From Candidatus Zixiibacteriota bacterium (GTDB lineage Bacteria; Zixibacteria; MSB-5A5; WJJR01; JAJRUJ01), in NCBI GenBank assembly GCA_024277855.1, contig JAJRUJ010000082.1, positions 3,537 through 67,536 on the forward strand: DNA of 64,000 nucleotides, in the 5' to 3' direction. The notes beneath the pieces are model-generated. The model ran no database searches. It was given only the letters and a program-made list of their open reading frames with translations, and was not told the DNA's origin. The position numbers and the translations under genes were made by a program. Below, in pieces: positions 2,553 to 63,548 of this stretch (its first letter is position 1; each line of letters starts with the position of its first letter).

Positions 2553-2555
2553 AAC

Positions 2556-6472: not shown

Positions 6473-6597
6473 GATGAACGTCCTTTTACCTGCTCAGCCC
6501 AGGCCCCATCCCGGCCAGCCTTGTCTAAAGGATAACTTTTTCTATTCCGGGGCCGCCTTGTACTCGTCACGAAACTCAGAGTCTCACCCGCGACATA

Positions 6598-8040: not shown

Positions 8041-8081
8041 GCTGCCTCCAACCAAAAATAGATGGTCAGACAACGATCCAA

Positions 8082-8333: not shown

Positions 8334-8345
8334 AGTGATACCCCT

Positions 8346-9428: not shown

Positions 9429-9495
9429 TTTCTACCTCATTATCAAGAAGTACTTTTTCTCGCATTGTGGAGAGAACGACTGGCGTTGGCTCCGG

Positions 9496-10716: not shown

Positions 10717-10898
10717 ACCTACTCCTAAAGTTTAAAATCCCTTCATCATATGCTTTGAAATCTCTTTTTGCCTTTTATGTCCGGCGCGCTTTAAGAATGT
10801 GGCCGGCGATTCTTACCGTGCCCGTCTGCGGAACCCCTCCCAGTTGGAACAGGGGTTAAATCAAACCGGATCAACCCGATCCGGCAAAACCCGGGATT

Positions 10899-10926
10899 AA
10901 GTAATATTTTTCACAAATACTGTCAA
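10899..10926 (-). promoter_or_regulatory. Putative dsrA promoter (-35 TTGACA) overlapped by a Rex-like operator
   Basis: Minus strand reads TTGACAgtatTTGTGAAAAATATTACTT. One perfect TTGTGAA half-site; the second half and the -10 element are degenerate. Confidence 0.45.
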
Positions 10927-11244
10927 GCGCATTCAGACCGAAATTCCAGCTAGTTGACAACTCCGGCACACCGCCGCCGAATCGACTCGATTCATCAACA
11001 GGTAATACTTTGTGAATCACATAATTACCTTAAGATCGCTGACGAGTCGATATTGCGGGCGAGGTCAATCTTTTTGCCGTTTTTCGCCCGCGTTCCCGAC
11101 CGCTGCCGGGCCGGGTTCAACCCCGGATAAATAACGTCATTTTCGGCCAGTCGCCGTAGTTTTATTCCTCCCTTGCCATCTGTTTGCAATTCTCGCGGCG
11201 GCTCATCGCCCCCACCGGTTATCACACCCTGATCGTTGTGGCTC

Positions 11245-13497
11245 TTACATATCTTTATAGGGGTTAGGCCCCATATCCTCGATCTCTTCCAAAAAATCAT
11301 CCAAAAGCTGCGGCAATTTGTGATAGTCGGTGATCTCCAATTCATGGATTTTCACCCGTTCGGGTTCAAGCACGAGCTGTTTTAGTTTTTCCTGCACATT
11401 TTCCATCCGGGTGTGGGCCAGTTCGCTGCCCCGAACAAAATGACATTGATAATCATCGCCGCGTTTGCAACCGAAGAGAATGATCCCGTCAAAACCCGAA
11501 GCAAGCGCATCACCGATCGCTACGGTATTGGCCGCGCCGATACAGCGCACCGGAATGACTCGCACCATCGCATTATGCTGCAGGTGATGTGCGCCGGCCA
11601 TATCGAGGGCGGGATACGAATCGTTCTCACACATAAAGACCAGGATACGCGGTTTTTCTTCGAATTCATCGGGCATGCTGATCGATTTGATCTGCTGCGA
11701 GAACGAATTGACGTTGTAGTCTTTGAAACTGATGATCCGTTCCGGACAGGCACCCAAACAGATTCCGCACCGACGGCAACGCAGGGGATTAAGCAGCGGT
11801 GTGCCCTTGTCGTCTTCGTCGAGGGTGCCAAACGGACATTCCTCCGTGCAACGCTTGCACTGAGTGCAGCGTTGCATGAAGAAGTCCGGATAACTTTCGT
11901 CACCGGCGCGCGGATGTACGGCCTTACCCTGCGCGGTACATTCAATCGACTGCACCGCTTTCAGCGTTGCGCCGAAAGCGTCGGAAGCGGCGGTGGCCAG
12001 GTCCATCGGCGCGCGCACACACCCGGCGGCGTAGATACCGGTCCGCCGCGTTTCATAAGGGAAACAGATGAAATGCGAATCGGGAAAGCCGTATTTCAAC
12101 GTTGGGAGATCGGTGCCCTGGCGATAGGTCAGGTTGAGGATATTTGCGCCTTTCTCTGCTCCCGCGGCCTCTTTCTTGCCGTCTTCGAGCATACCCTCGT
12201 CGGCTTTGTCATCGGTGCTTTCCTCTCCGGCAACGGCCTCGACTTCGTCTTCGACCAAGGTCGACGGGACCATTCCGGCGGCGAGGACCAACAAATCGGC
12301 CTCGATTTTAATCTTCTCGCCGAGCAGAGTCTCGTCGACTTCAACTCCCAGCCGGTCGCCGGCCAATACACTGACCTCGGCTATTTCGCCCTTGGTCATA
12401 AACAGCGCGTCATCTTCCTGAACATGCGCATAGAACCGTTCATACTGCGCCGGCGAACGAAGGTCTTTGTAGAGGATATAAATTTTGGCATCGGGATATT
12501 TCTCCCGGACATACATCGCCTGCTTAAGCGAAACCCGGCAGCAGACCGCCGAACAGTACGGCAGGTGGTCTTCGTCGCGTGAACCGGCGCACTGGATAAA
12601 GGCGATGCTCTCCGGCGGTTTACTGTCGGAGGGCCGGACCAGTTTATCGGCGGCAACCATCTGTTCCAGTTCGACATTGGTCACCACATTCGGCGATTTG
12701 CCATAACCAAGATAATCGAGCTTGCTCTTGTCGTATGGTTTCCAACCTGTCGCCAACACAATCGACCCGACTTGATGTTCTTCCGGACCGGCGCCGTTTT
12801 CCAGGTTGACCATAAACTGTCCGGGCTGACCGCTGGTCTTGGCGATTGTCGTCGATGTCTTGACCGTGATTTTGGGATTTTCGGATACTTTTTGCACCAG
12901 CTCCTGCCAGCCCGACGATTCCAGGTCATGGTATGGCGGATGTTTGGGGAAGACTTGTTTGAACTTGGCGGCCCACCCACCGAGTTTGTCTTCTTTTTCG
13001 ACCAGGAGGACATCATTGCCGGCGGCCGCCGCAGCCAAAGCGGAGTTCATCCCGGAAATCCCGCCGCCGACGACCATCACCGTCTTGCAGATTTCCTCGA
13101 TCAGCGGTTCGGGCGGTTCGGTGGTGTTCAGACGTGCGTTGCTCATGCGGATATAGTCTTCGGCCATCACCTGCGTGTCTTCATCCTCGTCCTGCGGTTT
13201 ATGCGACCAGGCGACATGCTCGCGAAGATTGCACCGGTCAACTAGGACGTCCTGGCCAAAGGCAAACAGGTCGGTAAACTGCCGCTGCGAACAGGCCGCG
13301 ACACTGACGCGATTGAGCGCATCGCTTTTAATATCATCACGGATCTGTTGCAGTCCTTCGGCCGAACAATACGCCGGATGAGTCCGGCAAATCGCCGGTT
13401 TGCATTCTTCGTTGGTTGCTTCGATAAGTTTTTCGATATCGAGGGCTTGGCCGATTTCACAACCCGAACAGATATAGATACCGACTTTCGTGTCCAT
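11245..13497 (-). CDS. qmoB: QmoB (HdrA-like FAD/Fe-S protein with C-terminal MvhD domain)
   Basis: VGVYICSGC, VVGGGISG, FIQCAGSRD...YCSAVCC, CTQCKRCTEECP, CRRCGICLGACP, and an MvhD-like RVIPVRC...GCKRGDDYQCH domain. Confidence 0.95.
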   Translation of the reverse strand: MDTKVGIYICSGCEIGQALDIEKLIEATNEECKPAICRTHPAYCSAEGLQQIRDDIKSDALNRVSVAACSQRQFTDLFAFGQDVLVDRCNLREHVAWSHKPQDEDEDTQVMAEDYIRMSNARLNTTEPPEPLIEEICKTVMVVGGGISGMNSALAAAAAGNDVLLVEKEDKLGGWAAKFKQVFPKHPPYHDLESSGWQELVQKVSENPKITVKTSTTIAKTSGQPGQFMVNLENGAGPEEHQVGSIVLATGWKPYDKSKLDYLGYGKSPNVVTNVELEQMVAADKLVRPSDSKPPESIAFIQCAGSRDEDHLPYCSAVCCRVSLKQAMYVREKYPDAKIYILYKDLRSPAQYERFYAHVQEDDALFMTKGEIAEVSVLAGDRLGVEVDETLLGEKIKIEADLLVLAAGMVPSTLVEDEVEAVAGEESTDDKADEGMLEDGKKEAAGAEKGANILNLTYRQGTDLPTLKYGFPDSHFICFPYETRRTGIYAAGCVRAPMDLATAASDAFGATLKAVQSIECTAQGKAVHPRAGDESYPDFFMQRCTQCKRCTEECPFGTLDEDDKGTPLLNPLRCRRCGICLGACPERIISFKDYNVNSFSQQIKSISMPDEFEEKPRILVFMCENDSYPALDMAGAHHLQHNAMVRVIPVRCIGAANTVAIGDALASGFDGIILFGCKRGDDYQCHFVRGSELAHTRMENVQEKLKQLVLEPERVKIHELEITDYHKLPQLLDDFLEEIEDMGPNPYKDM

Positions 13498-14774
13498 CAG
13501 TTAACCCCCTTCGCGACGATAATCCCCTTGAGCGCCGCGCCGGTGGCATCCTGCACAGTAGCGGCCACTTCGACCGGCCGCACTGTCGTTCCGGTGCCAA
13601 TGACGCCGGGATTGCCGTCGGCGAGCATGAAGCCATATTCATCAAGCGGCACATCGACCGGCGGCTTGGCCGCGGCGGTGGCCGGCACCATTCCGGTGGC
13701 CAAAATGGCCATATTCACCGTCACCTTCTGCAGCTTGCCGGTCAGGGTATCTTCGGCTTCAAGAGTCACATCACCATTGCCCGCGTCGGTAATTTTGCCC
13801 ACCTTGCCGCGCAGGAAATGAATCTTCTCATCGGCCTGCATCTTCTGGTAGAAATCTTCCAACCGACCCGGTGAGCGAATATCGATATAAAAAATATAGA
13901 CGTCGGCTTCGGGATATCGTTCGCGAATGTAGGTGGCCTGTTTCATGGAGACCATACAACAAACGGACGAACAGTACGGGAGATGATTGTCGTCGCGCGA
14001 ACCCGCACACTGGACAAAAGCAATACTGCTGATTTCGCCGCCGTCGGACGGCCGGACAATTTTTCCCTCAGTCGGGCCGTTCTGGGCGGCCAGCCGCTCC
14101 ATCATTACATTATTAATCACGTTGGGCAGTTTGCCGAAACCGAGCGTATCGAGCTTCCCGGCATCGTAGGGTTCCCAACCGGTCGCCCAAATAATCGAGC
14201 CGACTGTCGCAGTCAGTGTCACCGGTTTTTGCTCAAGTTCAAAGGCGCCATATTCACAGGCCTCGACGCAGGCTTTCATCCGCTCGTCCCCGGCAATGGC
14301 GGGATCGACCAGGTAGCGCATCGGGTAGGCCATTTCATGGGGCAGATAGACGGCCTTCGTCTTGTCCATCCCCCAGTTATACTCATTGTCGCGTTCAATC
14401 TCACAGACCTTGGCGCATTCGCCGCACGCCGTGCATTTTTCATTGATGAAACGGGGATTGCGACGGATCTGCACCTTGTAACTGCCGGCCGCCCCTGAAA
14501 TATTTTCGACCTCAGCCAGCGTAAGGATTCGGACTTTGGGATTATTGCGTAAACGACGATAGTTCATCTCCATCCCGCAATATGGCGGGCAGAGCTTGGG
14601 AAAATACTGGTTGATACGCGCCACCGCGCCACCGAGTGATGGGCCTTTCTCAACAAGGATAACCTCTTTACCCACCTCCGATGCCTCGATTGCAGCCGTC
14701 ATCCCGGCGATTCCTCCCCCGACAACAAGAATGGCGGCGGAGAGGGATGTTTCGGCTGCTGCCGGTTCTGCCAT
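13497..14774 (-). CDS. qmoA: QmoA (HdrA-like flavoprotein)
   Basis: ILVVGGGIAGMTAA, YFPKLCPPYCG, and FVQCAGSRDDNHLPYCSSVCC motifs; 425 aa, abutting qmoB. Confidence 0.95.
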   Translation of the reverse strand: MAEPAAAETSLSAAILVVGGGIAGMTAAIEASEVGKEVILVEKGPSLGGAVARINQYFPKLCPPYCGMEMNYRRLRNNPKVRILTLAEVENISGAAGSYKVQIRRNPRFINEKCTACGECAKVCEIERDNEYNWGMDKTKAVYLPHEMAYPMRYLVDPAIAGDERMKACVEACEYGAFELEQKPVTLTATVGSIIWATGWEPYDAGKLDTLGFGKLPNVINNVMMERLAAQNGPTEGKIVRPSDGGEISSIAFVQCAGSRDDNHLPYCSSVCCMVSMKQATYIRERYPEADVYIFYIDIRSPGRLEDFYQKMQADEKIHFLRGKVGKITDAGNGDVTLEAEDTLTGKLQKVTVNMAILATGMVPATAAAKPPVDVPLDEYGFMLADGNPGVIGTGTTVRPVEVAATVQDATGAALKGIIVAKGVN

Positions 14775-19876: not shown

Positions 19877-22468
19877 TTACTTGATCACGACGATTTTACC
19901 GACTTGATTGCCCCAGTCGGATTCGATCGAGTAGAGATAGATGCCCGACGTAATTGCCTGGGTGTTGCGCGTAATCAAATCCCAGGCCGTGTGGGAGGGG
20001 GTGTCCGAAAAGCGGCTCTCCGGGTGATGTAACTCGCGGATCAGGTCGCCGTCTAAAGAGAAGATTTTAATCGTCGCTTTTGGCGGCAGGTTGACAAAGT
20101 GAATCCGTCGCACGCGTTCCTTGAAACCCTCATGATTGGGGTCTTCATATCCCCGGCCGCGATAATCGGCGTCGATTTTATACGGATTGGTATAGACCGA
20201 AACGTTCAACCGATTTTCCTGAACATATTCCGGTGAATACGACGGATAGGCCAATTGCAGGTTTGATTGTGGTGGTGATTCGAGCGGGCCGAGATCGCCC
20301 GCGGCATATCCCTGGTCAAACGCGGTCACGGCAAAATAGTACGGCTGGCTCGGCAGTAAGTTGTCGATGACGCACTCGTAATGGCCGAACAACTGCCAGC
20401 TCTGGCTGTCGTCATCCCAGAGCGAATCGGTGCGGACATATTGAATCGGATTGTCGACGACTCGTCCGTATTCGACATACTCATTGCCCCGGTTGCCGCC
20501 ATGCGGCACGAAATAAAACTGCTCGCCGGAATCGTCGGTATACACCGAATTCCGGTCGGGATACTCTTCCGGGATAAAATCGGCGCCGAGCATGCTCTGC
20601 AGCTGTTCCAGCGTGAACGGTGGCTCGTTGCAAACCCAGGGCGAGGGCCGGGCGGTGGGGATAAAACGATACCGGTCATAGTTGACCACATCCCATGAGC
20701 AGACCAGGTTCAGCGAGTTGACATCGGAACCGATCCCACTGTAGACGCTGTAACCTTCGAAATCCCGCGTTTGAGAGAAGGGATCAAAAAACGGTTCGCA
20801 GACCTTCCCGCTCCAGGTAATCCGCACGGTATATGGCTCGGTAGATATTTTGATTTCGGGTGACGGCGGCGGCGGGGGCGTCCGGAGGTCGGGGATGCCA
20901 TCGCCAACATAATAAAACGAATCGCAGACTTCATAATTATCAAAACAGACATCATAACAAAATACTGAATCGCCATCCTCGAAACATTTTTCGAAGCATA
21001 CATTATCTTCCCGCCGGCAATTGACGCCGTATTTCCTCCCCGAGCAGCCGTCGCCATCGGTATCGATCCCTGGATTGTCGTAGACCCGTGAGGCCCATTG
21101 GAGATTCCTGGTCAAGTCTGAGAAATCGACATTCTTGAACCACTCGTTCGGGTTTTTGGAGAGGTTTTTTCGATTGCCGGCATCGCGATGAAAAAGTTCA
21201 CCCCCGGCAAAGGCAACGGTAAACGGTATCGTCTCGCCGGGCTCCAGTTCAAGCGGACCGATAGAATAGAGTATACATACGTCGTGTCCATCGGCAATAT
21301 TATATACTTCGCCCTCCTTTATATCCCGTATACCGAACGGCGGAATCCAGCCGCTTTCGGTCGAATCGTCGTTCGCCAAATATTGGTCGTAATCGATTTC
21401 ACGGTTCGAAAGATAACGGTACCGTTGCGCATCTCCATAAGGACCGCCCAATTTCCCGATAATAGATCGATCACCCGGCAGTTTTTGTGGACCCCAAAAA
21501 TACGACCACCAATTGAAGGAGTAATTCGGTACGGGGGTTGCTGAAAAGCACTGATCCTGGCCCAATCCGAGGACCCGAACTCCTATGACTGAGCGGACGC
21601 TCTGCTCCCAGAAACCCTGATGATAAAGATCGCCGTCGTTGTCGGCCCACCAGGCGGCCATGATTGTATCCGCAAAGTCACCGCCGGTAGAAACGGGCGC
21701 GGTACGCATGAAGCCGACAAGATTCTCCTTACCTGCCAGCGCCTTTGTGCTCATCCGGTTCAATACTCTGGGGTATATCCATAACCCAAGCCACAAGTTG
21801 GAGATAGGGATATTTCGTAAGTTAGTCAGGGAATACTGAACAATAATGACGTCTTCCAGGTAATCATAACTCCAAACATAAGAATGCTGCCTGATGCCGA
21901 TTCCGATTGGTTTATGCGGACGGAGGGTATAATAATCCGGCAAAACGTATTCCTGGTCCATTATTGTATCGGCATATTGGCAAATCAGTTCCTCGGTGGC
22001 AATTGCTGCAGGGTCGAAATGTGGGCTATTCGGTTCGTTGCTCAGCTCCAGGAAATCCATATCTTCTGCTCCCGGGAGCCACTCCCATTGAGTGACCAGG
22101 GTATCCGCGGTGGAGCCAGATCCGAAGACTGCCCCCGCCCAAAGTTCACCCCAGTTTAGATAGTCGCAATTACTCCCGGCGGGATATTGCATGCCGGGAG
22201 CGGGGAGCCCGGTCTCGGGGTCAACTAATGAACTATAAACATTGCCAAATTCACCCCAATTGGTCATCGTCATCTGGAAGTTTCCGGCACGATGAATGCG
22301 ATATTGGGTATTGGGAGCGTCGCTGACCCCATTCGTCTGAGCCAGCTTGATAAACCGTCGATTGGATGAATCGGGGATGCTATTCTGCCCGGTGGCAGAT
22401 ACTGCAAGACAGGATATTAGAGATAATGCGATTACGACACGCAAACCGCCGAAGCCAAACCACCCCAT
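19877..22468 (-). CDS. Large secreted protein of unknown function with T9SS-like C-terminal domain
   Basis: Signal peptide after a GGGGAG SD, Pro-run linker, FnIII-like segment (YYFAVTAFD), and C-terminus VYTNPY...IHFVNLP...IKIFSLDGDLIREL...WDL...SGIYLY...GKIVVIK. Confidence 0.7.
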   Translation of the reverse strand: MGWFGFGGLRVVIALSLISCLAVSATGQNSIPDSSNRRFIKLAQTNGVSDAPNTQYRIHRAGNFQMTMTNWGEFGNVYSSLVDPETGLPAPGMQYPAGSNCDYLNWGELWAGAVFGSGSTADTLVTQWEWLPGAEDMDFLELSNEPNSPHFDPAAIATEELICQYADTIMDQEYVLPDYYTLRPHKPIGIGIRQHSYVWSYDYLEDVIIVQYSLTNLRNIPISNLWLGLWIYPRVLNRMSTKALAGKENLVGFMRTAPVSTGGDFADTIMAAWWADNDGDLYHQGFWEQSVRSVIGVRVLGLGQDQCFSATPVPNYSFNWWSYFWGPQKLPGDRSIIGKLGGPYGDAQRYRYLSNREIDYDQYLANDDSTESGWIPPFGIRDIKEGEVYNIADGHDVCILYSIGPLELEPGETIPFTVAFAGGELFHRDAGNRKNLSKNPNEWFKNVDFSDLTRNLQWASRVYDNPGIDTDGDGCSGRKYGVNCRREDNVCFEKCFEDGDSVFCYDVCFDNYEVCDSFYYVGDGIPDLRTPPPPPSPEIKISTEPYTVRITWSGKVCEPFFDPFSQTRDFEGYSVYSGIGSDVNSLNLVCSWDVVNYDRYRFIPTARPSPWVCNEPPFTLEQLQSMLGADFIPEEYPDRNSVYTDDSGEQFYFVPHGGNRGNEYVEYGRVVDNPIQYVRTDSLWDDDSQSWQLFGHYECVIDNLLPSQPYYFAVTAFDQGYAAGDLGPLESPPQSNLQLAYPSYSPEYVQENRLNVSVYTNPYKIDADYRGRGYEDPNHEGFKERVRRIHFVNLPPKATIKIFSLDGDLIRELHHPESRFSDTPSHTAWDLITRNTQAITSGIYLYSIESDWGNQVGKIVVIK

Positions 22469-22558
22469 CACACTCCCCCTAAAAGCCATTGCTATCTTTT
22501 GCTAAACATATGATCTTAAGTAATAATATCATCCGCCGCAACCTGGAGTTTTCATTCT

Positions 22559-34489: not shown

Positions 34490-35403
34490 TGTTTTTTCAT
34501 CGCTCCGATTAACTTGGTCACCGCCGGAATGTTATTTGCCTTGAGGTGATTTTTAATTTGGCGCACGATATCGACGCAGGCGGTCGGTTCGCGGAAAGTC
34601 GCCGTGCCCACCTGCACCGCCGTGGCCCCGGCCAGGAAAAACTCAATCGCGTCGGCGCCGGTCATGATCCCGCCAATCCCGATTACCGGGACAGCTACCG
34701 CTTGCGAGATTTTATGTACACAGGCCAGCGCAACCGGCTTGATTGCCGGGCCGGAGAGGCCGCCGGTGATGTTGGACAAGCGAGGCCGATGTGTCTTAAT
34801 ATCGATCGCCATCCCCACCAGCGTATTGATCGCCGAGACCGCGTCAGCGCCCCCGTCGGTTGCCGCTTTAGCCAATTCGGCGATATCATGCGTATTCGGC
34901 GTGACTTTGGCGATCAACGGCGTCGTCGTCACCTGACGAACACCGGCCACGCATGAGTGAACCCAGCGCGGGTCGGCGCCGTTGTCCAGCCCTTCTTTGA
35001 CATTGGGACAGGAAAGATTCAACTCCAGCAGGTCGATCCCGCGCGCACCGTCGAGTCGACGCGCGGCTTCAACATAGTCGCCAATCTTCCGGCCGACAAT
35101 GTTGACGATAACCTTCGTCCCGGAATCCCGTAACAAATCGAGTTTTTCTGCGAGGAAACGATCCAGCCCAACATTTTGCAGCCCGATACAATTTAGCATT
35201 CCGGCCGTGGTTTCGGCCACCCGCGGCGCCGGATGGCCCGGCCGTGGCTCGACCGAAATCGATTTGGTGACAAAACCGCCGAGGTCTTTCAACCGGATGA
35301 CGCGGGCAAGTTCCTCACCGGTGCCGCAGGTCCCCGATGCCGTGAGTACCGGGTTGGCAAAGGTGATCCCGGCGATGTTGACTTGCAAATCGGGGGCTTT
35401 CAT
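34486..35403 (-). CDS. pyrD: Dihydroorotate dehydrogenase B, catalytic subunit
   Basis: NPVLTASGT, ELNLSCPNV and GGLSGPAIKP motifs. Confidence 0.96.
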   Translation of the reverse strand: MKAPDLQVNIAGITFANPVLTASGTCGTGEELARVIRLKDLGGFVTKSISVEPRPGHPAPRVAETTAGMLNCIGLQNVGLDRFLAEKLDLLRDSGTKVIVNIVGRKIGDYVEAARRLDGARGIDLLELNLSCPNVKEGLDNGADPRWVHSCVAGVRQVTTTPLIAKVTPNTHDIAELAKAATDGGADAVSAINTLVGMAIDIKTHRPRLSNITGGLSGPAIKPVALACVHKISQAVAVPVIGIGGIMTGADAIEFFLAGATAVQVGTATFREPTACVDIVRQIKNHLKANNIPAVTKLIGAMKKQ

Positions 35404-36221
35404 AATTGCACCTCGGCGGCGGAGAAAACCGGGCCATCATGACACACCCGCAAATAGCGATCATACCCGTCCCGCGCCGGACGGGCGGGAACCGCACACC
35501 CCGAACAGACCCCGAAACCGCACGGCATCATCTCTTCCAAAGAAACCTGTCCCCAATATCCGCCGCGAATAATCCATTCCTGCAACGCCTTAAGCATCGG
35601 AGTCGGACCGCAGCCATAAACTGCCGTATCGGCAGCCGACCATCCTGATTTGTCCGCGAGTTTTTTGAGTAAATCAATGACCGTGCCGTGATGACCAATC
35701 GATCCGTCATCGGTCGCCGGATAACTGCGCACACCGGGTATGCGCGGAACCCGTAACCGGTCGGCCATCGACCGCGAGCCGATCAGCAGGATTATTTCGG
35801 CGGGTCGATTTCGTTTGCGGGCAGCCAAATGCCGCGCCCAGAAATGCAACGGCGGGAGACCGACTCCCCCCGCGACAAGCACCGCCCGTTTCCGGCCCGG
35901 CGAGCGGCAGAAAGTGTTGCCCAACGGGCCAACGATTGAAATCTCATCTCCCTTTTTCAAGCGTGACAGCAGGCGGGTGCCCGTGCCCACCGTGGCAAAC
36001 AAAACAGAGAACCAGCCCCGCTTCGGAGCGGTATGGTAAATGGACATCGGCCGCCGAAAAAACGGTTCGATCCCCGGTGTGGTCTGTATCTGGATGAACT
36101 GACCCGGCTTGCCCAAGCGAGCAATGTATGGATGATAAAATGTCTGGGTGACGGCGGCCGCGGTCAGGCGGGTTGTCCGCACAAGTCGGGCGGGAGCACT
36201 ATTTAATAAAGTTGGGGTCAT
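35400..36221 (-). CDS. pyrK: Dihydroorotate dehydrogenase electron-transfer subunit
   Basis: RRPMSI, VAGGVGLPP, YGCGP.PML, and the 2Fe-2S motif M.CGFGVCSGC...VC.DGPVF. Confidence 0.93.
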   Translation of the reverse strand: MTPTLLNSAPARLVRTTRLTAAAVTQTFYHPYIARLGKPGQFIQIQTTPGIEPFFRRPMSIYHTAPKRGWFSVLFATVGTGTRLLSRLKKGDEISIVGPLGNTFCRSPGRKRAVLVAGGVGLPPLHFWARHLAARKRNRPAEIILLIGSRSMADRLRVPRIPGVRSYPATDDGSIGHHGTVIDLLKKLADKSGWSAADTAVYGCGPTPMLKALQEWIIRGGYWGQVSLEEMMPCGFGVCSGCAVPARPARDGYDRYLRVCHDGPVFSAAEVQL

Positions 36222-39200
36222 CGAAAATATTTTCTTTATCCTGCGCAGGCGGGATGACCCGCACCTCGTACTGATACCAGATATTCAGCGATTCCGCCGG
36301 AATCGAGTCCGGGTTGAAAAATGTCCCTTCAACAGCCGCGGTCGCCGCGAGATCGATGTCGGGGACATTGCTGGACTCGACTAATTCATATTCGCCGATC
36401 TCGCCGGTAAAATCAATCCATATCTTGAAAACAACTTTCCCTTTCCACGGATTCTGCCCCAATTCCGACTCGGGATAAATAAATTCTCCCAGCGTCTTAA
36501 TCCTGTTCCTGGCCGTAGGCGCCTTGGGCAGCCGAATAATGGTCGTATCCCCCTGTTCGGCCTGAATCGCCGCCAGGGCCGAATCGATATCGTCATCTCC
36601 GCTGGATGCTTCAACCATCACTGCCCGCTTCCTCTGTTCCTGCTTGGGCACGTTGCCGCCCAGGCGGGCTTTGGCGGCGGCGGCAAATTTTGTATTCGGG
36701 AAACTGTCGATATACTCCTGGTAAAGCTCGACCAGCGACGAATCCTCCCGATCGGTCTGCATGTCCTCGGCCATCATCACCGCGGCATACGCCGCTTGAG
36801 GCGCGTAGATGCTGGTGGGAAATTCACGGGCGATCCAGGCGAATTTCTCCCGCGCGGCCTGCGGATTGTCATCCTGCAGGTAGAGTTGCTCGGCCTGTCG
36901 ATAATATGCGCCGGGATATCCCGTATCGGCGGCAGTCTGGGCCAGACCGAGACGGGCAATTGCCGCTCCGGCGAAATCTGTCCGGCCATAATCATCCAGC
37001 ACCCGCCGATAGCGCCTGGCCGCCGCCGCCGAATCGCCCATTTCCTCAAGGATGGAGCCGGTGGCAAACAAGGCCCGCGGGGTGTATCCACTCTCCGGGA
37101 ATTTGACGATCAGCGTATCATAATAGGACAATGCCGAATCGTTTGCCTCCAAGGTCAGGTGGAGGGCCTGGGCCACGTTAAAATACGCGGTGGCCAATTT
37201 CTCCCGTTCGGCAAGACGTGCGCGTTCCGCCTCTTCCGCCAATCGTTCGGCAACAGCCAGATCCCTGGCCGCCTGGTTGGAGTCGAGCGTCATCGTCGTG
37301 TCAACGGTCAGTATGGTATCCAACGCCAGTGTCGTGTCATATAGGTAAGCCAGCCCCGCGATCAATCCGGAATCGACTGACACCGTGGTGTCTACAATAA
37401 TCAACGTGTCGAAGATCATTACCGGATCGGCGGGAACCAGTCCTCTGGCCGCCGCCAACGAGTCGATTATCCGCGTGGTGTCGACAATCAGCGACGTGTC
37501 GAATCCTACGGTTGTATCATGGTTATGAACATCATTCCAAGCCGTTTTTGGTACGACGATTCGCACGGTATCAACGACCAGCGAAGTATCGAAGCCATAC
37601 GTCGTATCCAGAGCCAGAGAAGTGTCGACGGTAAAGGTCGAGTCAAGAGTAAGCATCGAATCAATAACAACCGCCGTGTCGATCGCGAGGGTCGTGTCAA
37701 TGGTGCGGGTCGTATCGAGGGCAAGCGCAGAGTCAAGAGCAATTGTCGAGTCGAGAGGGGCGATCTGGTCGCCGCTTGACAACAGCGTGTCAATGGTCGT
37801 TGTCGTGTCAATAAATATTGTCGTATCGATTATAACTGTCGTGTCGATTTTCAATAGTGTCCCGAACGATGATAGGATATTCTGGTAAATAAGCGAATCG
37901 ATAATCCACGCCGTCTCGTCCGGCGGCAATTCAACATATTGCTTGGGACTTTCAGCGACCGACAACGAATCACCCGTCACGACCGTATCCGCCGCACCGA
38001 CCGTATCCGTCGACACCGAATCACGGGCGAGGATTGAATCGATGTTCGTGTCGACGGCCGCGCGGCCGCCCAGGGTATCGCGTAGCCCAATGGCGGTGGA
38101 CCCGGTCCGCAGTACGCCTCCGGTTGATGTCGTTTCTGCTGCGCTCGGTTCAGTCGACGGCTTTGGTTTGCCGCTCGGCGGAACCACGCTCAGCAGGGTA
38201 TCGACAAGATACGTCGTATCAACGGCTACGGTCGTATCGATCGCCAGCAGGGTGTCCACCCGGGGAATTGTGTCGATCTCTGCCCCTGCCATTTCACTGA
38301 TCGACGAGTCGATGGCGCTGATTGTCTCGGTAGTATCAATTATTGCCTTGTCGGTGGAATCAACCGGCGTCTCAGCGAATATTGAATCCAAAACCACGGT
38401 AGTATCGGCGATGATTGCAGAATCGGGAGTTGCGAGTGAGTCCGGTACAATATCGGCCCCGCTGTCGTAGATCGAATCGGCAATCTTCGCCAGTTGGGCG
38501 GTGACTTGCTCAACGGTCATCTCCGACGGCGAAAGATCGGGCGGGATATCGACTATTGGTTCGGCCTCGGGAGCGGCAGTTTCGATAATCGTGGTATCAA
38601 CGACCGAATCAACTTCGGTGTCGGCCGAGGTTGGTTCGCCGGCTATTGCCTGCGATATCGTGGCCGATTCTGTCGTGTCGGCCGAAACATTCTCGGCGGT
38701 CGTATCGGCAATAGACGAGTCGGCCAAACCGAGTGAATCGGCTCGCGCTGTATCGGCCGTATCGGCGTATGCCTCGGCAATCTGCTTTTGATATTCCTCG
38801 ATAGTGGCCAACACTACCGAGAGGGCGATGGCTTTCTTGGCAAACTGGCTGCCGCTTTTTTCTTTTTTGGACAGGGCATAAAATTCGCGGGCAAGCGGAA
38901 AATCGAAATAATACTTTTGATGAATATAGCCGATGCGGTAATAGGCCTCGGCGGCCCAGACCGTTTTAGGAAAGGTCTCGGTCACGTCGGTATAAATGCC
39001 GATGGCCTCCTCATATGCACCCGCTTGTTCTTTCCCCCAGCCGATTTTTAACTGGACCACGCCAAGAGAATCGAAAAATAAATCGTTGGAGGCCAGTTCG
39101 TCGAGAATCGCCAGCCCGGAGTCGATCTCCTGCCGTTCGAAAAACGCGTCCGACATCCGAATGCGCGCCCGATAGACAAGTTCATTAGTGGGTTTCTCGG

Positions 39201-39870
39201 CCAGGGTCCGGTAGAACTGCTCGAGGGCCTCGTCCTGCCGCCCGGCTAACATCAGCGCGTCGCCCGCGTGATAGCGAATCCCTTTGGCAATGCCTTCCGA
39301 GCCATACTCATCGGCAACCGTAAGGTAGGCCTGGGCGGCCGAATCATACTCTTCGTTTTCATAGAAAAGATTGCCCAGTTCGGTCCAGGCCTCCGCCCGC
39401 CAGCGTTTACTCTCGGCGTTTAGCGCCAACCGGTACAACATTTCCCGCCCGGCCACAAGTTCCCGCAGGTTCACCCGGCAGAGGGCGATCCAGTATTTAC
39501 TCTCTTCGACGAATTTGCTCTCAGGATAATTGGTGATAATCTCGTCGAACGCGCGCTCGCTTTTAGTGAACTCACCCATGCGAAAATAACACAAACCGAT
39601 GTAATAATAGGCATCGTCGACCCATTTACTGTTGGGATGGCGATCGATGATTTTACTGAAGCGCTCGATCGCTTCCTCATACGTCCGATACCCGGCACCG
39701 AACCGGGAGGACCCTTTCTTGTTGCCGATCGCCCGACTCTGGTTCTCAGCTAATTCGAAATTTTTCTTGGCGTTAAAAAAGGCGTTATAATATACACACC
39801 CGGCGGCGAGCATCGTTACCGCGAGGACGACAATCACGCGCAGGATGAAATTTCTCAAATTGCGATCCAT
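36199..39870 (-). CDS. TPR lipoprotein with long D(S/T)x repeat region and C-terminal TonB-like domain
   Basis: Lipobox LAAGC, YYNAFFNAKKNF, multiple TPRs, a roughly 500-aa Asp/Thr-rich region, more TPRs, and C-terminus YPE...KGKVVFKIWIDFTGEI...ESS...D.AA..A. Confidence 0.8.
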   Translation of the reverse strand: MDRNLRNFILRVIVVLAVTMLAAGCVYYNAFFNAKKNFELAENQSRAIGNKKGSSRFGAGYRTYEEAIERFSKIIDRHPNSKWVDDAYYYIGLCYFRMGEFTKSERAFDEIITNYPESKFVEESKYWIALCRVNLRELVAGREMLYRLALNAESKRWRAEAWTELGNLFYENEEYDSAAQAYLTVADEYGSEGIAKGIRYHAGDALMLAGRQDEALEQFYRTLAEKPTNELVYRARIRMSDAFFERQEIDSGLAILDELASNDLFFDSLGVVQLKIGWGKEQAGAYEEAIGIYTDVTETFPKTVWAAEAYYRIGYIHQKYYFDFPLAREFYALSKKEKSGSQFAKKAIALSVVLATIEEYQKQIAEAYADTADTARADSLGLADSSIADTTAENVSADTTESATISQAIAGEPTSADTEVDSVVDTTIIETAAPEAEPIVDIPPDLSPSEMTVEQVTAQLAKIADSIYDSGADIVPDSLATPDSAIIADTTVVLDSIFAETPVDSTDKAIIDTTETISAIDSSISEMAGAEIDTIPRVDTLLAIDTTVAVDTTYLVDTLLSVVPPSGKPKPSTEPSAAETTSTGGVLRTGSTAIGLRDTLGGRAAVDTNIDSILARDSVSTDTVGAADTVVTGDSLSVAESPKQYVELPPDETAWIIDSLIYQNILSSFGTLLKIDTTVIIDTTIFIDTTTTIDTLLSSGDQIAPLDSTIALDSALALDTTRTIDTTLAIDTAVVIDSMLTLDSTFTVDTSLALDTTYGFDTSLVVDTVRIVVPKTAWNDVHNHDTTVGFDTSLIVDTTRIIDSLAAARGLVPADPVMIFDTLIIVDTTVSVDSGLIAGLAYLYDTTLALDTILTVDTTMTLDSNQAARDLAVAERLAEEAERARLAEREKLATAYFNVAQALHLTLEANDSALSYYDTLIVKFPESGYTPRALFATGSILEEMGDSAAAARRYRRVLDDYGRTDFAGAAIARLGLAQTAADTGYPGAYYRQAEQLYLQDDNPQAAREKFAWIAREFPTSIYAPQAAYAAVMMAEDMQTDREDSSLVELYQEYIDSFPNTKFAAAAKARLGGNVPKQEQRKRAVMVEASSGDDDIDSALAAIQAEQGDTTIIRLPKAPTARNRIKTLGEFIYPESELGQNPWKGKVVFKIWIDFTGEIGEYELVESSNVPDIDLAATAAVEGTFFNPDSIPAESLNIWYQYEVRVIPPAQDKENIFDDPNFIK

Positions 39871-41546: not shown

Positions 41547-41650
41547 CGGGGAGGAATATAACCGCATAGAGGCCGGAAGACAAACCGTCAACTCAAGGTG
41601 GACATTTGGCTGGTTTGTCGGTTCATTATCAGAGTGGAATTGAGGGAACG

Positions 41651-42247
41651 ATGAAATATCGACTAATTATTGGTCTGCTGGCAGTTGTGGTTCAGACGAT
41701 GCTGGTTGCACCCGGCCTGGCGCAGGAACCGTCCGGTGGAGACTCGACAAAAGTCGCCCAATCGCCGGTGATGCTCAACCGGGCGGATGATACCTCGGTT
41801 ACCACGCCGATGCTCCTGCAACCAGCAAAACCCGATACCGGGTTCTGGTCCCGTCCCACCGGTGCTCTGTTTAAATCGGTGCTGGTCCCGGGTTGGGGAC
41901 AGCTTGCCAACGGGAAATACCAGAAAGCCGCGATCTATGCCGGGCTGGAAACATATTTCGCCCTCCGGGCGGCGCATTTTTTCAGAAAAACACGTGAGCA
42001 TTTCGACCGGTTCCGCGAAACCGATGAGCGAAGTGATTATTTCGCCTACGACAACGCCAAAAACAACCGGAACAAATTCTATTGGTACCTCGCGGGGACG
42101 ATCTTCATCAGTATGTGGGACGCCTATACCGACGCCCACCTCAAACCGTTTGAGGAAACCGAGGGCGATGATGATTATTGGGGACTCAGCGACCGCCCCG
42201 AAATCTCACCACCCGGGGTATCACTTGCTTTAACTTTCAAATATTGA
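41651..42247 (+). CDS. DUF5683-like exported/membrane protein
   Basis: Signal peptide, P..AL.KS.L.PGWGQL.NGKY.KA, and W...DAY.DAHL..F. Confidence 0.7.
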   Translation: MKYRLIIGLLAVVVQTMLVAPGLAQEPSGGDSTKVAQSPVMLNRADDTSVTTPMLLQPAKPDTGFWSRPTGALFKSVLVPGWGQLANGKYQKAAIYAGLETYFALRAAHFFRKTREHFDRFRETDERSDYFAYDNAKNNRNKFYWYLAGTIFISMWDAYTDAHLKPFEETEGDDDYWGLSDRPEISPPGVSLALTFKY

Positions 42248-62432: not shown

Positions 62433-63548
62433 ATGAATCTGAAGCAATTACTATCAGAAATGGCTGACCGCAAGGCCTCGGATTTGCATCTGCGCGCGGG
62501 TATTCCCCCGACCTTACGGGTCGACGGTGAGTTGATCGCTATCGAGACTGACAGCTTGACCCCCGAACAACTCGACGAATTCGTCAAGCAAATCCTCTCC
62601 GAGGAACAATTGAAACGCTACTATGCCCAGCATGAAATGGACTTGGCGCTTTCGGTATCCAAAATGGGTCGATTCCGGGTCAATTTGTATCGCCAGCGGG
62701 GAACCCCGGGGATGGCGATCCGTGCGGTTAATACCATTGTTCCGTAATTTGAAGAACTGAACCTGCCCGAAGTAATCAAGGATCTGTGTGAAGAACGGCG
62801 CGGCCTGATCGTGCTCACCGGCACGACCGGCTCAGGAAAATCGACGACTCTCGCTTCGATGATCGAGCGAATCAACGACACCCGCGCCTGCAACATCCTG
62901 ACGATTGAAGACCCGATCGAATATATCTATAAGAACAACAAGTCGATCATCTGCCAGCGCGAAGTCGGCGGCGATTCGGCGTCATTTGCCGCGGCGTTGC
63001 GGCATGCTTTCCGGCAGGACCCCGATGTGATTTTGATCGGTGAAATTCGCGACCTGGAGACAATGTCGATCGCCCTGAGCGCCGCCGATACCGGCCACCT
63101 GGTGTTAACGACGCTCCATACGCTTAATGCCGTCGAAACGATCACCCGTATCGTCTCGTTCTTCCCACCGCATCAGCATCAACAAGTGCGCCTGCTCTTG
63201 TCCGGCACGCTTAAAGCAATTGTTTCGCAACGGCTCTTTGCGCGTTGCGACAGCCCGGGCCGTGCCCCGGCGGTGGAAGTGCTGATTGGCACCGCGGCGA
63301 TCCGCGACGCATTACTGGATCAGGACAAAACCAGCACGATTCACGATTTGATCGAAAACGGGCAGGTCCAATACGGCATGCAGACGTTCGACCAGTCGAT
63401 CATGAAGTTGTATCGCCAGAACATGATTACCTATGAAGAGGCGATGCATCAGGCCTCGAATCCCGACGACTTCGATCTGCGGGTCCGTGGGATTACCGGC
63501 GCTTCCGATCGGGGCTGGTCGGATGTGTCGGTCCAGACAAACGGCTGA
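62433..63548 (+). pseudogene. pilT: Type IV pilus retraction ATPase (PilT/PilU family) interrupted by an in-frame TAA
   Basis: The two ORF-track pieces are in the same frame: ...AVNTIVP-TAA(62745-62747)-FEELNLPEVIK...GTTGSGKST, then EDPIE, LRHAFRQDPD, GEIRD, TTLH, SQRL, GMQTFDQ. Confidence 0.85.

What the first reader, a model, noticed from the sequence alone, without database searches (positions are those of the whole stretch)
36199..39870. Envelope-spanning TPR lipoprotein with a D(S/T)x sequon-packed stalk and TonB-like C-terminus
Seen: lipobox, TPR block, then roughly 500 aa (about 37250-38790) with about 57 D-S/T dipeptides, about 47 matching D-(S/T)-(A/I/L/V/M/T) by hand count, many in 6-residue register (LDSTIA-LDSALA-LDTTRT-IDTTLA-IDTAVV-IDSMLT-LDSTFT-VDTSLA-LDTTYG), then more TPRs and a TonB_C-like domain. 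Established: D(S/T)(A/I/L/V/M/T) is the Bacteroidota general O-glycosylation sequon, and SprE/PorW of T9SS are TPR lipoproteins. Inference: a heavily glycosylated mucin-like or beta-solenoid periplasmic ruler linking an OM-anchored TPR scaffold to a TonB-box-type partner, an architecture I do not recognise. It is embedded in a housekeeping run (cobB-radical SAM-this gene-pyrKDF-nnr), suggesting a core function.
Basis: partly seen in the sequence, partly recalled or inferred. Interest (0 to 1): 0.75.

Follow-up and report, generated by a model that had tools for sequence, protein, structure and literature searches.

The report
PorW/SprE-like lipoprotein with giant sequon loop
This gene encodes a Zixibacteria relative of PorW/SprE, the lipoprotein scaffold of the type IX secretion pore; its normally short flexible loop has grown to about 500 residues packed with the Bacteroidota O-glycosylation motif, which hints that this sugar-tagging system works outside Bacteroidota.

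Summary
Window 36199-39870 (-) encodes a 1223-aa lipoprotein with this order: TPR block, a ~500-aa tract, a second TPR block, and a TonB_C-like domain. The tract holds 57 D-S/T dipeptides and 47 D-(S/T)-(A/I/L/V/M/T) sequons, against 17 and 9 in shuffles, and shows period 6.

The architecture is not unknown. It is that of the T9SS lipoprotein PorW/SprE.
- hhalign to PorW/SprE equivalogs gives probability 100% and E 4e-59 over 671 columns.
- SprE (PDB 8gl8_I) is the best natural structural match.
- The tract sits where SprE carries its disordered, O-glycosylated, PorD-binding "Finger Region".

In 43 of 60 Zixibacteria orthologues the two TPR blocks abut. The tract is therefore a lineage-specific loop, not a stalk or ruler. 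AlphaFold2 gives it no fold.

The glycosylation inference gains support.
- Twelve independent non-periodic inserts carry the exact three-residue sequon (p 1e-28 to 1e-67).
- Predicted exported Zixibacteria proteins are sequon-enriched (observed/expected 1.82, against 1.04 in E. coli).
- T9SS cargo tails are common in these genomes.

The TonB_C homology holds at family level. T9SS core genes and actual glycans were not seen. Verdict: a new variant of a known kind, of moderate interest.

The parts
36199..39870 (-). Whole gene: 1223-aa PorW/SprE-like outer-membrane lipoprotein (stop codon 36199-36201)
   Evidence: ORF list. Homologues at 46% identity over full length (P0002). hhalign to PorW/SprE equivalogs E 4.2e-59.
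39796..39870 (-). Signal peptide and lipobox (MDRNLRNFILRVIVVLAVTMLAAG|C, Cys25)
   Evidence: Read directly from the sequence. The Cys is conserved in family members.
39757..39798 (-). Conserved N-terminal motif C-VYYNAFFNAKKNF, shared with PorW/SprE equivalogs (aYYNtxYNA)
   Evidence: Invariant Y4, N6, F8 and A11 in alignment A1. Aligned to the same motif of the PorW/SprE group by hhalign. Used as the DNA search pattern that recovered more than 529 relatives.
38848..39756 (-). N-terminal TPR block (about 8 TPR units)
   Evidence: Pfam TPR_6/TPR_16 and others. NF052312 PorW_SprE E 1.4e-27 over aa 56-331. AF2 pLDDT above 90. Colinear with SprE residues 84-386.
38728..38847 (-). Long helix leading into the insert (candidate 'finger' helix 1, aa 342-381)
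   Evidence: AF2 helix at model residues 319-358. By analogy with the SprE finger helices; this is inference.
37909..38778 (-). Insert part A (aa 365-654): acidic, S/T/A/P-rich, irregularly spaced sequons (25)
   Evidence: Composition and counts. AF2 pLDDT about 25-40.
37261..37908 (-). Insert part B (aa 655-870): hexapeptide arrays phi-D-(T/S)-x-phi-x, 27 D-[ST] units (22 full sequons), 39% hydrophobic
   Evidence: Period-6 autocorrelation and unit list. AF2 alone gives pLDDT 30. Similar arrays occur in other exported proteins.
37153..37281 (-). Long helix leaving the insert (candidate 'finger' helix 2, aa 864-906)
   Evidence: AF2 helix at model residues 841-883, pLDDT 76-94.
36664..37152 (-). 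C-terminal TPR block, including the invariant PDSA-type motif (NDSAL here)
   Evidence: Pfam TPR_21 and CpoB-like hits. AF2 pLDDT about 90. Aligned to SprE 573-654 and 684-751. Invariant D-S-A columns.
36538..36663 (-). Low-confidence linker (aa 1070-1111)
   Evidence: AF2 pLDDT 31-45.
36202..36537 (-). TonB_C-like C-terminal domain (beta-beta-alpha-beta, YP motif)
   Evidence: PF03544 22.6 bits and TIGR01352 26.7 bits. Passes the cut-off in P0008, P0019 and P0026. The family profile finds only TonB CTDs with E below 0.01 in the PDB. AF2 pLDDT 75-92. Present in 57 of 60 orthologues.
35400..36221 (-). pyrK, overlapping the gene's 3' end by 23 nt (conserved downstream partner, followed by pyrD, pyrF and nnr)
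   Evidence: Pfam DHODB_Fe-S_bind. pyrK is the next gene in 58 of 78 loci.
19877..22489 (-). Context evidence: 870-aa exported protein with a T9SS type A C-terminal sorting tail
   Evidence: TIGR04183 22.5 bits against cut-off 23 on the tail. Homologue P0125 is named 'T9SS type A sorting domain-containing protein' by NCBI.

Best explanation
The gene encodes the Zixibacteria version of PorW/SprE, the outer-membrane-anchored TPR lipoprotein that forms the periplasmic 'dish' under the type IX secretion translocon (SprA/Sov).

Shown:
- It is homologous to PorW/SprE from the N-terminal lipobox motif through both TPR blocks.
- The D-S/T-rich tract lies at the position of SprE's Finger Region, the disordered, O-glycosylated, PorD-binding loop that interrupts the TPR array.
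- Most Zixibacteria orthologues lack the tract.
- When a tract is present it is nearly always dense in the exact Bacteroidota O-glycosylation sequon.
- Exported proteins of these genomes are enriched in that sequon.
- These genomes encode T9SS cargo tails.

Inferred:
- After Sec export and lipidation, the loop is O-glycosylated in the periplasm at up to about 47 sites, roughly one glycan per 6 residues in the arrays.
- This would give a bulky, protease-resistant, hydrated glycan brush hanging from the translocon scaffold. It could also act as a platform for a PorD-like partner.
- The TonB_C-like C-terminal domain replaces the PorN-binding or SPOR C-termini of other PorW homologues. It would tether the scaffold to a partner beta-strand or to peptidoglycan.
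For: Homology to PorW/SprE:
- hhalign of the family against PorW/SprE equivalogs gives probability 100%, E 4.2e-59, 671 columns, and includes the N-terminal YYNxF(F/Y)NA motif.
- The NF052312 score falls in a gradient: 307, 263 and 257 for equivalogs, 133-100 for Zixibacteria relatives, and 97 for this protein.
- The family profile hits SprE 8gl8_I in one colinear stretch of 547 profile positions (E 3.4e-15). The insert falls opposite SprE 387-572, which contains the Finger Region E445-T550.
- In Foldseek, SprE is the best natural match and has the highest TMq.

Published anatomy of SprE: 13 TPRs, a 160-aa finger insertion with about 100 disordered residues that binds PorD, glycosylation needed for stability, and a dispensable C-terminus (PMC10994853).

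Nature of the insert:
- AF2 gives two confident TPR blocks, two long flanking helices and an insert with pLDDT 25-30.
- The insert is absent in 43 of 60 orthologues and is 100-546 aa in 17.
- In 12 non-periodic inserts, 152 of 202 Asp are followed by S/T (p 2e-67) and 130 of 152 of those by A/I/L/V/M/T (p 3.5e-28). E-[ST] and [ST]-D are not enriched.

Lineage-level sequon signal:
- Exported-protein sequon O/E is 1.82 (CI 1.51-2.17), against 1.08 for cytoplasmic proteins and 1.04 (CI 0.75-1.40) for E. coli exported proteins.
- The third-position preference is 51.7% against 35.9% expected from composition.

T9SS in these genomes: T9SS type A tails occur on 7 of 65 non-redundant predicted exported proteins (best E 2.9e-14), and one lies in the window.
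Against: - The protein scores 96.7 bits on the PorW/SprE equivalog model, whose cut-off is 250, and only the N-terminal half matches that model directly.
- No T9SS core gene (SprA/Sov, PorV, GldKLMN, PorU/Z, PorD, SkpA) was seen in the window or in the 1.3 Mb of related loci.
- No paper in the searched library reports a T9SS in Zixibacteria.
- Generic TPR models also score. YbgF reaches 112.7 bits, above its cut-off of 90.1. BamD passes its cut-off in some relatives.
- Motif-directed O-glycosylation is experimentally known only in Bacteroidota, and its transferase is unidentified, so it cannot be searched for.
- Insert part B is 39% hydrophobic and lies on the 'folded' side of the charge-hydropathy plot. 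It may therefore not be a simple disordered glycopeptide.
- Signal-peptide calls in the enrichment test were heuristic.
Confidence: 0.6

Rival explanations
1. One reading: a new envelope-spanning architecture. A glycosylated stalk or beta-solenoid acts as a periplasmic ruler between an outer-membrane TPR scaffold and a TonB_C head that grips a TonB-box partner.
For: The domain order is as described. The TonB_C homology holds at family level. The tract is very long and sequon-dense.
Against: - The two TPR blocks are directly contiguous in 43 of 60 orthologues, and the TonB_C domain is kept regardless of the insert. The tract is therefore a loop, not a spacer between modules.
- The same layout exists in SprE.
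- There is no inner-membrane anchor.
- AF2 finds no solenoid and there is no Hexapep hit.
- 500 extended residues would far exceed the width of a periplasm.
Confidence: 0.07
2. A generic envelope TPR lipoprotein unrelated to secretion. It would be a CpoB/YbgF- or BamD-like factor that coordinates the outer membrane with peptidoglycan, with the TonB_C domain as a cell-wall or Tol/Ton-related anchor. The resemblance to PorW would be shared ancestry only.
For: TIGR02795 (YbgF) scores 112.7 bits against a cut-off of 90.1. TIGR03302 (BamD) scores 74.5 here and 142, 107 and 96 in relatives, against a cut-off of 81.4. JGI names relatives 'TolA-binding protein'. The gene sits in a housekeeping operon with pyr genes across the phylum. 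No T9SS core genes lie nearby.
Against: - Those scores are sums over many TPR_6-type repeats against short models.
- CpoB is a ~260-aa non-lipoprotein with an N-terminal coiled coil, and BamD is ~250 aa.
- Neither has the YYNxFFNAKK motif, the interrupted two-block layout, or a colinear alignment of more than 650 columns. The PorW/SprE group has all three.
- No tol-pal or bam genes are adjacent.
Confidence: 0.15
3. The hexapeptide arrays (insert part B) are a folded or partner-templated beta structure rather than a glycan carrier. They could be a small beta-solenoid, a metal-binding Asp ladder, or a strand-donating holdase surface for cargo. On this view the D-T pair is a structural turn motif. 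This rival concerns the insert only and is compatible with a PorW role.
For: - Part B is 39% ILVFMWY and rich in beta-branched residues. It lies on the folded side of the Uversky line and has almost no Gly, Pro or charged residues other than Asp.
- Much more hydrophobic period-6 D-T arrays occur in small lipoproteins and in T9SS cargo. Those are hard to picture as soluble disordered chains.
Against: - AF2 gives pLDDT about 30 both in context and alone.
- No known repeat family matches.
- The only features shared by all inserts, periodic or not, are D, then S/T, then a hydrophobic residue or Thr. That is the sequon, not a fixed repeat length.
- The sequon itself forces a hydrophobic residue next to each site, which explains part of the hydrophobicity.
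Confidence: 0.2

Closest known systems
SprE (Flavobacterium johnsoniae, PDB 8gl8 chain I) / PorW (Porphyromonas gingivalis), NCBIfam NF052312
   Same: - Outer-membrane lipoprotein with the N-terminal YYNxF(F/Y)NA motif.
- A long TPR array interrupted by a disordered insertion flanked by long helices.
- Sequons in that insertion (SprE S538 and T550).
- A variable C-terminal region.
- Colinear sequence and profile alignment.
   Different: - Scores 97 bits against the 250-bit equivalog cut-off.
- Comes from Zixibacteria, not Bacteroidota.
- The insert is about 500 aa against 160 aa, and carries about 47 sequons against about 2, partly as period-6 arrays.
- The C-terminus is a TonB_C-like domain instead of the poorly ordered (SprE) or PorN-binding (PorW D6) region.
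TonB C-terminal domain (PF03544 / TIGR01352)
   Same: The YP motif and a beta-beta-alpha-beta domain. The only PDB matches with E below 0.01 for the family's C-terminal profile are TonB CTDs.
   Different: There is no N-terminal inner-membrane anchor, no Pro-rich spacer and no ExbBD context. The domain is fused to an outer-membrane lipoprotein, so it cannot transduce proton-motive force the way TonB does.
CpoB/YbgF and BamD (TPR_6-type envelope TPR proteins)
   Same: The same TPR subtype, and high summed scores on TIGR02795 and TIGR03302.
   Different: The present protein is four to five times longer and has two blocks. It carries the PorW-type N-terminal motif, the insert and the TonB_C domain. 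It has no tol-pal or bam neighbours.
Bacteroidota general O-glycosylation substrates (motif D-(S/T)-(A/I/L/V/M/T))
   Same: It is an exported protein. The sequon matches exactly, with Asp specificity and a third-position preference, and lies in low-complexity regions.
   Different: The organism is outside Bacteroidota. The sequon density and the period-6 arrays were not described in the papers read here. No glycan has been observed.

Membership tests
T9SS PorW/SprE (NF052312) | Whole-protein score at or above the curated equivalog cut-off (250 bits) | tested here: not met
   96.7 bits, E 1.4e-27, aa 56-331 on model positions 68-351. Bona fide equivalogs P0051, P0036 and P0029 score 307, 263 and 257.
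T9SS PorW/SprE (NF052312) | Full-length colinear homology: lipobox, N-terminal motif, N-terminal TPRs and C-terminal TPRs | tested here: met
   hhalign probability 100%, E 4.2e-59, 671 columns. The profile hits SprE 8gl8_I over SprE residues 84-654. In Foldseek SprE is the best natural match.
T9SS PorW/SprE (NF052312) | TPR array interrupted by a disordered Finger Region | tested here: met
   The insert lies opposite SprE 387-572. AF2 shows long helices on either side of a 480-aa region with pLDDT below 50. The definition comes from PMC10994853.
T9SS PorW/SprE (NF052312) | Genome encodes a T9SS (core genes and CTD cargo) | tested here: inconclusive
   Cargo tails are present: the window protein (22.5 against cut-off 23 bits), the NCBI name of homologue P0125, and 7 of 65 exported C-termini matching TIGR04183, best E 2.9e-14. 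Core genes were not found in the DNA held, and whole genomes could not be scanned.
T9SS PorW/SprE (NF052312) | Binds SprA/Sov, SkpA and PorD; required for cargo release | not testable with these tools
   Needs pull-downs or genetics.
TonB family (TonB_C, PF03544 / TIGR01352) | C-terminal domain matches the TonB_C model above the cut-off | tested here: inconclusive
   This protein scores 22.6 against 24.6 and 26.7 against 27.1 bits. Relatives pass at 32-34.5 bits. The family profile hits TonB CTDs only below E 0.01, best E 5.5e-6.
TonB family (TonB_C, PF03544 / TIGR01352) | N-terminal inner-membrane anchor and Pro-rich periplasmic spacer working with ExbB/ExbD | tested here: not met
   The N-terminus is a lipoprotein signal peptide followed by TPRs. 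No exbBD genes are nearby.
CpoB/YbgF (TIGR02795) | Score above the cut-off | tested here: met
   112.7 against 90.1 bits, but summed over 6 separate TPR stretches of a 119-position model.
CpoB/YbgF (TIGR02795) | A ~260-aa periplasmic protein with an N-terminal coiled coil, encoded with tol-pal | tested here: not met
   It is a 1223-aa lipoprotein. Full-length CpoB model NF008068 scores 55.9 against 383 bits. The neighbours are cobB, radical SAM and pyrKDF.
BamD/YfiO (TIGR03302) | Score above the cut-off and a ~250-aa five-TPR lipoprotein | tested here: not met
   74.5 against 81.4 bits. The architecture is far larger.
Bacteroidota-type general O-glycoprotein | Non-cytoplasmic protein carrying D-(S/T)-(A/I/L/V/M/T) | tested here: met
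   Lipoprotein signal. 55 sequons in the whole protein, 47 of them in the insert.
Bacteroidota-type general O-glycoprotein | Lineage shows sequon enrichment in non-cytoplasmic proteins (the test used in PMC12871550, Fig. 2A) | tested here: met
   O/E is 1.82 (CI 1.51-2.17) for exported proteins, 1.08 for cytoplasmic, and 0.83-1.03 for the control motifs. E. coli exported proteins give 1.04. Signal-peptide prediction was heuristic and the sample was 1.3 Mb.
Bacteroidota-type general O-glycoprotein | Glycan actually attached; glycosylation machinery present | not testable with these tools
   The O-oligosaccharyltransferase is still unidentified. Mass spectrometry is needed.
Left-handed beta-helix hexapeptide repeat (PF00132) | [LIV]-[GAED]-x2-[STAV]-x repeats that match Hexapep and fold as a beta-helix | tested here: not met
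   No Hexapep hit at E<=1. Position 5 is mostly L/I/V/F/Y/R. AF2 predicts no helix.

The most novel reading that the evidence does not exclude
Zixibacteria, a phylum outside Bacteroidota, use the motif-directed D-(S/T)-hydrophobic O-glycosylation system. Period-6 sequon arrays (phi-D-T/S-x-phi-x) would then be a previously undescribed 'glyco-repeat' module of exported and T9SS-associated proteins. In this PorW/SprE homologue the module turns the translocon's finger loop into a mucin-like brush of about 47 glycans. If so, comparing sequon-enriched Zixibacteria and Bacteroidota with non-enriched relatives could point to the still-unknown O-oligosaccharyltransferase.
Probability: 0.4. Interest if true: 0.75.

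Novelty: new variant of a known kind. Interest (0 to 1): 0.55.

Why it matters
- It places a PorW/SprE-type translocon scaffold in Zixibacteria, present in nearly every genome sampled there. It carries a different C-terminal anchor (TonB_C in place of SPOR or a PorN-binding region). This helps separate the core of the scaffold from its interchangeable parts.
- The Finger Region can be absent or can reach 546 aa. That fits the published finding that it is dispensable in F. johnsoniae, and it marks the loop as a fast-evolving accessory.
- The sequon statistics suggest that the Bacteroidota O-glycosylation code works outside that phylum. That would give a phylogenetic handle on the unidentified transferase.
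- Hexapeptide sequon arrays recur in other exported proteins and have no family model. They are a candidate new repeat class, and could serve as a natural scaffold for dense bacterial glycosylation.

Tried and rejected
- Left-handed beta-helix or other solenoid: no Hexapep hit. AF2 on the whole mature protein with 19 sequences, and on the repeat core alone, gave pLDDT 25-30. Not excluded, but unsupported.
- Recent DNA slippage as the origin of the repeats: Tandem Repeats Finder found only three weak arrays of 2.2-2.5 copies, two of period 18 bp and one of period 9 bp. A lag-30-aa duplication (aa 761-772 and 791-802) explains one autocorrelation peak.
- jackhmmer with the window's CTD against all C-termini in the loci found only itself. 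The NCBIfam scan of 65 C-termini replaced it.
- Three literature searches for T9SS in Zixibacteria returned nothing relevant.
- phmmer of the first 114 mature residues against the PDB was dominated by designed TPRs and BamD. It did not resolve the N-terminal motif.
- A motif-based removal of the family in the control script was incomplete and inflated the exported O/E to 2.51. The HMM-filtered value of 1.82 is the one used.
- The hit to a 5016-aa fish protein (P0153) has only 2 period-6 pairs and is treated as compositional.
- No T9SS core gene was recognised among the largest ORFs of the loci.

Full report
**1. The observation**

Window 36199-39870 (-) is an intact ORF of 1223 aa starting at MDRN. 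The upstream ATG at 39939 would overlap the radical-SAM gene, which stops at 39875.

The N-terminus is a lipoprotein signal ending in LAAG|C. Pfam finds TPR families at aa ~60-330 and ~888-1070.

Between them, aa 365-870 holds 57 D-[ST] dipeptides and 47 D-[ST]-[AILVMT] triplets. Composition-preserving shuffles of the same segment give 17.0+/-3.3 and 9.4+/-2.7, and none of 5000 shuffles exceeded 30 or 21. 57 of the 66 Asp are followed by S/T. Asp-Asp spacing peaks at 6, 12, 18 and 24.

The tract has two parts:
- aa 365-654 is acidic and S/T/A/P-rich, with irregularly spaced motifs.
- aa 655-870 consists of blocks of phi-D-(T/S)-x-phi-x hexapeptides.

The C-terminus scores just below the TonB_C cut-offs: PF03544 22.6 against 24.6 bits, and TIGR01352 26.7 against 27.1.

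**2. The organism and the family**

The closest relatives are 46% identical over the full length (P0002). The only named close relatives are Zixibacteria.

A scan of one genome per species found more than 529 relatives. Most of the best 80 are labelled Candidatus Zixiibacteriota or Zixibacteria, and most of the rest are MAGs labelled Ignavibacteria or Ignavibacteriales. A second window protein also has only Zixibacteria relatives among those that are named.

Gene order is conserved across the phylum. pyrK follows in 58 of 78 loci, then pyrD in 50 and pyrF in 45. Sir2/cobB precedes in 39. In the window, the gene's end overlaps pyrK by 23 nt. This is a core, vertically inherited gene.

**3. What the architecture is**

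The NCBIfam model for the T9SS lipoprotein PorW/SprE (NF052312) matches aa 56-331 at E 1.4e-27, but at 96.7 bits, below the 250-bit equivalog cut-off.

The scores fall in a gradient:

| Group | NF052312 score (bits) |
|---|---|
| Bacteroidota/Rhodothermota-type equivalogs | 307, 263, 257 |
| Zixibacteria-type relatives | 133-88 |
| This protein | 96.7 |

A profile-profile comparison of the family with nine of those PorW/SprE-type sequences gives probability 100%, E 4.2e-59 and 671 aligned columns. The alignment starts at the shared N-terminal motif (VYYNtFFnAKK against aYYNtxYNA).

Against all PDB sequences, the family profile hits F. johnsoniae SprE (8gl8_I) in a single colinear stretch, profile 55-601 to SprE 84-654 (E 3.4e-15). 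It is the only long natural protein matched that way. By Foldseek, SprE is the best natural hit of the AlphaFold2 model and has the highest query TM-score.

The cryo-EM paper on the extended translocon (PMC10994853) describes SprE as follows:
- It is a TPR lipoprotein with 13 TPRs.
- Its ninth repeat is interrupted by a 160-aa Finger Region. This is about 100 disordered residues between two helices. It binds PorD and is dispensable.
- Its last 113 residues are poorly ordered and dispensable.
- It carries O-glycans that stabilise it, including sites S538 and T550 in the finger.

The present protein has the same plan. AF2 gives a confident N-terminal TPR block, then a 40-residue helix. About 480 residues at pLDDT 25-30 follow, then a 43-residue helix and a confident C-terminal TPR block. 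A short linker and a confident beta-beta-alpha-beta domain complete the chain. In the SprE alignment the insert falls opposite SprE 387-572, which contains the finger.

**4. The tract is a loop, not a stalk**

HMMs of the two TPR blocks were run on 60 orthologues from representative genomes.
- In 43 orthologues the blocks are separated by 0-14 residues, in proteins of ~700-735 aa.
- In 17 orthologues there is an insert of 100-546 aa.
- The window (518 aa by these boundaries) and its closest relative (546 aa) have the largest inserts.
- The TonB_C block is present in 57 of 60, whether or not an insert is present.

The insert ends must therefore be close in space. The insert cannot be a spacer between an OM-anchored module and a distal head. 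The protein also has no inner-membrane anchor. The 'ruler' and 'envelope-spanning' readings are not supported.

**5. The sequon is the conserved feature of the inserts**

I pooled twelve inserts from other lineages that lack period-6 arrays, 2080 aa in total:
- 152 of 202 Asp are followed by S/T (38 expected, p 2e-67).
- 130 of those 152 are followed by A/I/L/V/M/T (64 expected, p 3.5e-28).
- E-[ST] is not enriched (14 against 23 expected).
- The reversed order [ST]-D is at expectation (37 against 38).

This is precisely the three-residue motif of the Bacteroidota general O-glycosylation system, including its Asp specificity (PMC12871550). Two inserts, L004 and L011, are sequon-poor.

**6. Does the lineage use that motif?**

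I applied the test used in that review, motif frequency in non-cytoplasmic proteins against expectation. The sample was the 1.3 Mb of mostly Zixibacteria-labelled DNA fetched here, with the PorW-like family removed.

| Protein set | Sequon observed/expected | Third position hydrophobic or Thr after D-[ST] |
|---|---|---|
| Zixibacteria predicted exported | 1.82 (360 vs 198); after collapsing into 95 homologous clusters 1.82, bootstrap CI 1.51-2.17 | 51.7% vs 35.9% by composition, p 1e-17 |
| Zixibacteria cytoplasmic | 1.01-1.08 (CI 0.94-1.25) | 42.6% vs 37.8% |
| E. coli K-12 exported (250 kb, same script) | 1.04 (CI 0.75-1.40) | 39.1% vs 38.9% |

Control motifs with E, N, Q, G, K or A in place of D give 0.83-1.03 in the Zixibacteria exported set.

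Signal peptides were called heuristically and the sample is regional. I therefore treat this as good but not conclusive evidence that a motif-directed O-glycosylation system operates in Zixibacteria. [quoted passage not shown] The transferase is unknown, so the machinery cannot be searched for.

**7. Is there a T9SS?**

No core T9SS gene was seen in the window or in the loci. The literature searches returned nothing for Zixibacteria. Cargo signals, however, are common:
- The window's 870-aa exported protein (19877-22489, -) ends in a type A sorting tail, TIGR04183 22.5 bits against cut-off 23.
- A homologue of it is named 'T9SS type A sorting domain-containing protein' by NCBI.
- 7 of 65 non-redundant predicted exported C-termini from the loci match TIGR04183, best E 2.9e-14. 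It is the most frequent family among them.

This makes a T9SS likely, but core genes remain to be shown.

**8. The TonB_C-like domain**

Relatives P0008, P0019 and P0026 pass TIGR01352 at 32-34.5 bits. A profile of 16 family C-termini finds only TonB C-terminal domains with E below 0.01 in the PDB, seven of them with E<0.002 and the best at 5.5e-6, aligned over the YP motif and the following strands. AF2 gives beta-beta-alpha-beta at pLDDT 75-92.

The protein is not a TonB, because it has no inner-membrane anchor and no Pro-rich arm.

Other PorW homologues carry different C-termini: a SPOR domain (PF05036 in P0031, P0033, P0041, P0059 and P0062) or the PorN-binding D6 region of P. gingivalis PorW. 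I infer that the C-terminus is an exchangeable tether, either to a partner strand or to peptidoglycan.

**9. State of the hexapeptide arrays**

Part B is 39% hydrophobic and has no Glu. It lies on the 'folded' side of the charge-hydropathy line, so it is not a typical disordered sequence. Yet AF2 predicts nothing and no repeat family matches.

A phmmer search of 1.84 billion representatives with part B found only 32 proteins. About 24 of them are unrelated exported proteins with long period-6 D-[ST] arrays, up to 29 consecutive units. Most have a signal peptide, often of lipoprotein type. Several have T9SS tails, for example P0154 with PF18962 at 49.8 bits. No Pfam family covers the arrays.

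The array is thus a recurrent, uncharacterised module of exported proteins. I favour a densely glycosylated extended chain, because the sequon is what periodic and non-periodic inserts share. A beta structure is kept as a rival at about 0.2.

**10. Verdict**

The finding is real. It is best read as a Zixibacteria PorW/SprE-family scaffold with a hyper-expanded, probably O-glycosylated finger loop and a TonB_C-type C-terminal tether.

Homology is shown. The T9SS role, the glycosylation and the function of the tether are inferred.

It fails the curated equivalog threshold, so I describe it as a new variant of a known kind rather than a member of NF052312. The most interesting by-products are the sequon enrichment outside Bacteroidota and the hexapeptide sequon-array module.

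Noticed in passing
window 19877-22489 (-): An 870-aa exported protein with no Pfam domain and a near-threshold T9SS type A sorting tail. About 70 homologues were found, and every one that carries a taxon name is Zixibacteria. Its function is unknown.
   Followed up: partly
P0154-P0181 (hits of window 37261-37908): Period-6 phi-D-(T/S)-x-phi-phi arrays of up to 29 consecutive units occur in unrelated small lipoproteins and in T9SS-tailed proteins. No Pfam family covers them. One group of 220-320-aa lipoproteins shares a C-terminal '...GH.ID.C...' domain.
   Followed up: partly
window 933-14774 (-): A dissimilatory sulfite reductase cluster: dsrA (9496-10716, 590 bits), dsrB (8346-9428, 522 bits), dsrM (2556-3548, 529 bits), an Fe-S protein at 933-2552 that may be DsrK-like, and Hdr/Flp-type oxidoreductases at 11245-14774.
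   Followed up: partly
window 35400-36221 / 36199-36221: The PorW-like gene overlaps pyrK by 23 nt. The linkage PorW-like, pyrK, pyrD, pyrF is conserved in most Zixibacteria loci (58, 50 and 45 of 78). I have no explanation for why an envelope lipoprotein is tied to pyrimidine synthesis genes.
   Followed up: partly
L010 and L074 (both from MAG JACRAV01): One genome carries two paralogues of the family. One has a 155-aa sequon insert with period-6 units, and the other has no insert.
   Followed up: no
window about 37129-37143 (aa 910-914, NDSAL) and alignment A1 columns P887 D888 S889 A890, D1020 S1021: A P-D-S-A motif at the start of the C-terminal TPR block is invariant at D-S-A and nearly so at P in all 19 family sequences. 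An E-D-S-S motif is invariant at D-S. The PDSA motif is also present as LPDSAA in PorW/SprE equivalogs. It could be a conserved glycosite or a helix cap.
   Followed up: no
P0031, P0033, P0041, P0059, P0062; alignment A4 C-terminus: PorW/SprE-type homologues of Bacteroidota/Rhodothermota type end in a SPOR domain (PF05036), where the Zixibacteria proteins have TonB_C. Some of them also carry A-D-S-[LIA] sequon runs before the SPOR domain, for example P0036 aa ~770-870.
   Followed up: partly
window 38467-38514 (aa 453-468, SEMTVEQVTAQLAKIA): A short helix predicted at moderate confidence (pLDDT about 64) lies inside the otherwise unstructured insert. It might be a partner-binding element, analogous to the PorD site in SprE's finger.
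   Followed up: no
window 41606-42247 (+): A DUF5683 protein lies next to the operon on the opposite strand. The same cluster is two genes upstream of the PorW-like gene in 7 loci.
   Followed up: no
window 62811-63548 (+): The ORF as called (GTG start) matches only the C-terminal part (model positions 126-343) of the PilT/PilU type IV pilus ATPase model, at 315.7 bits against a cut-off of 319.1. A truncated gene or a miscalled start was not checked.
   Followed up: no
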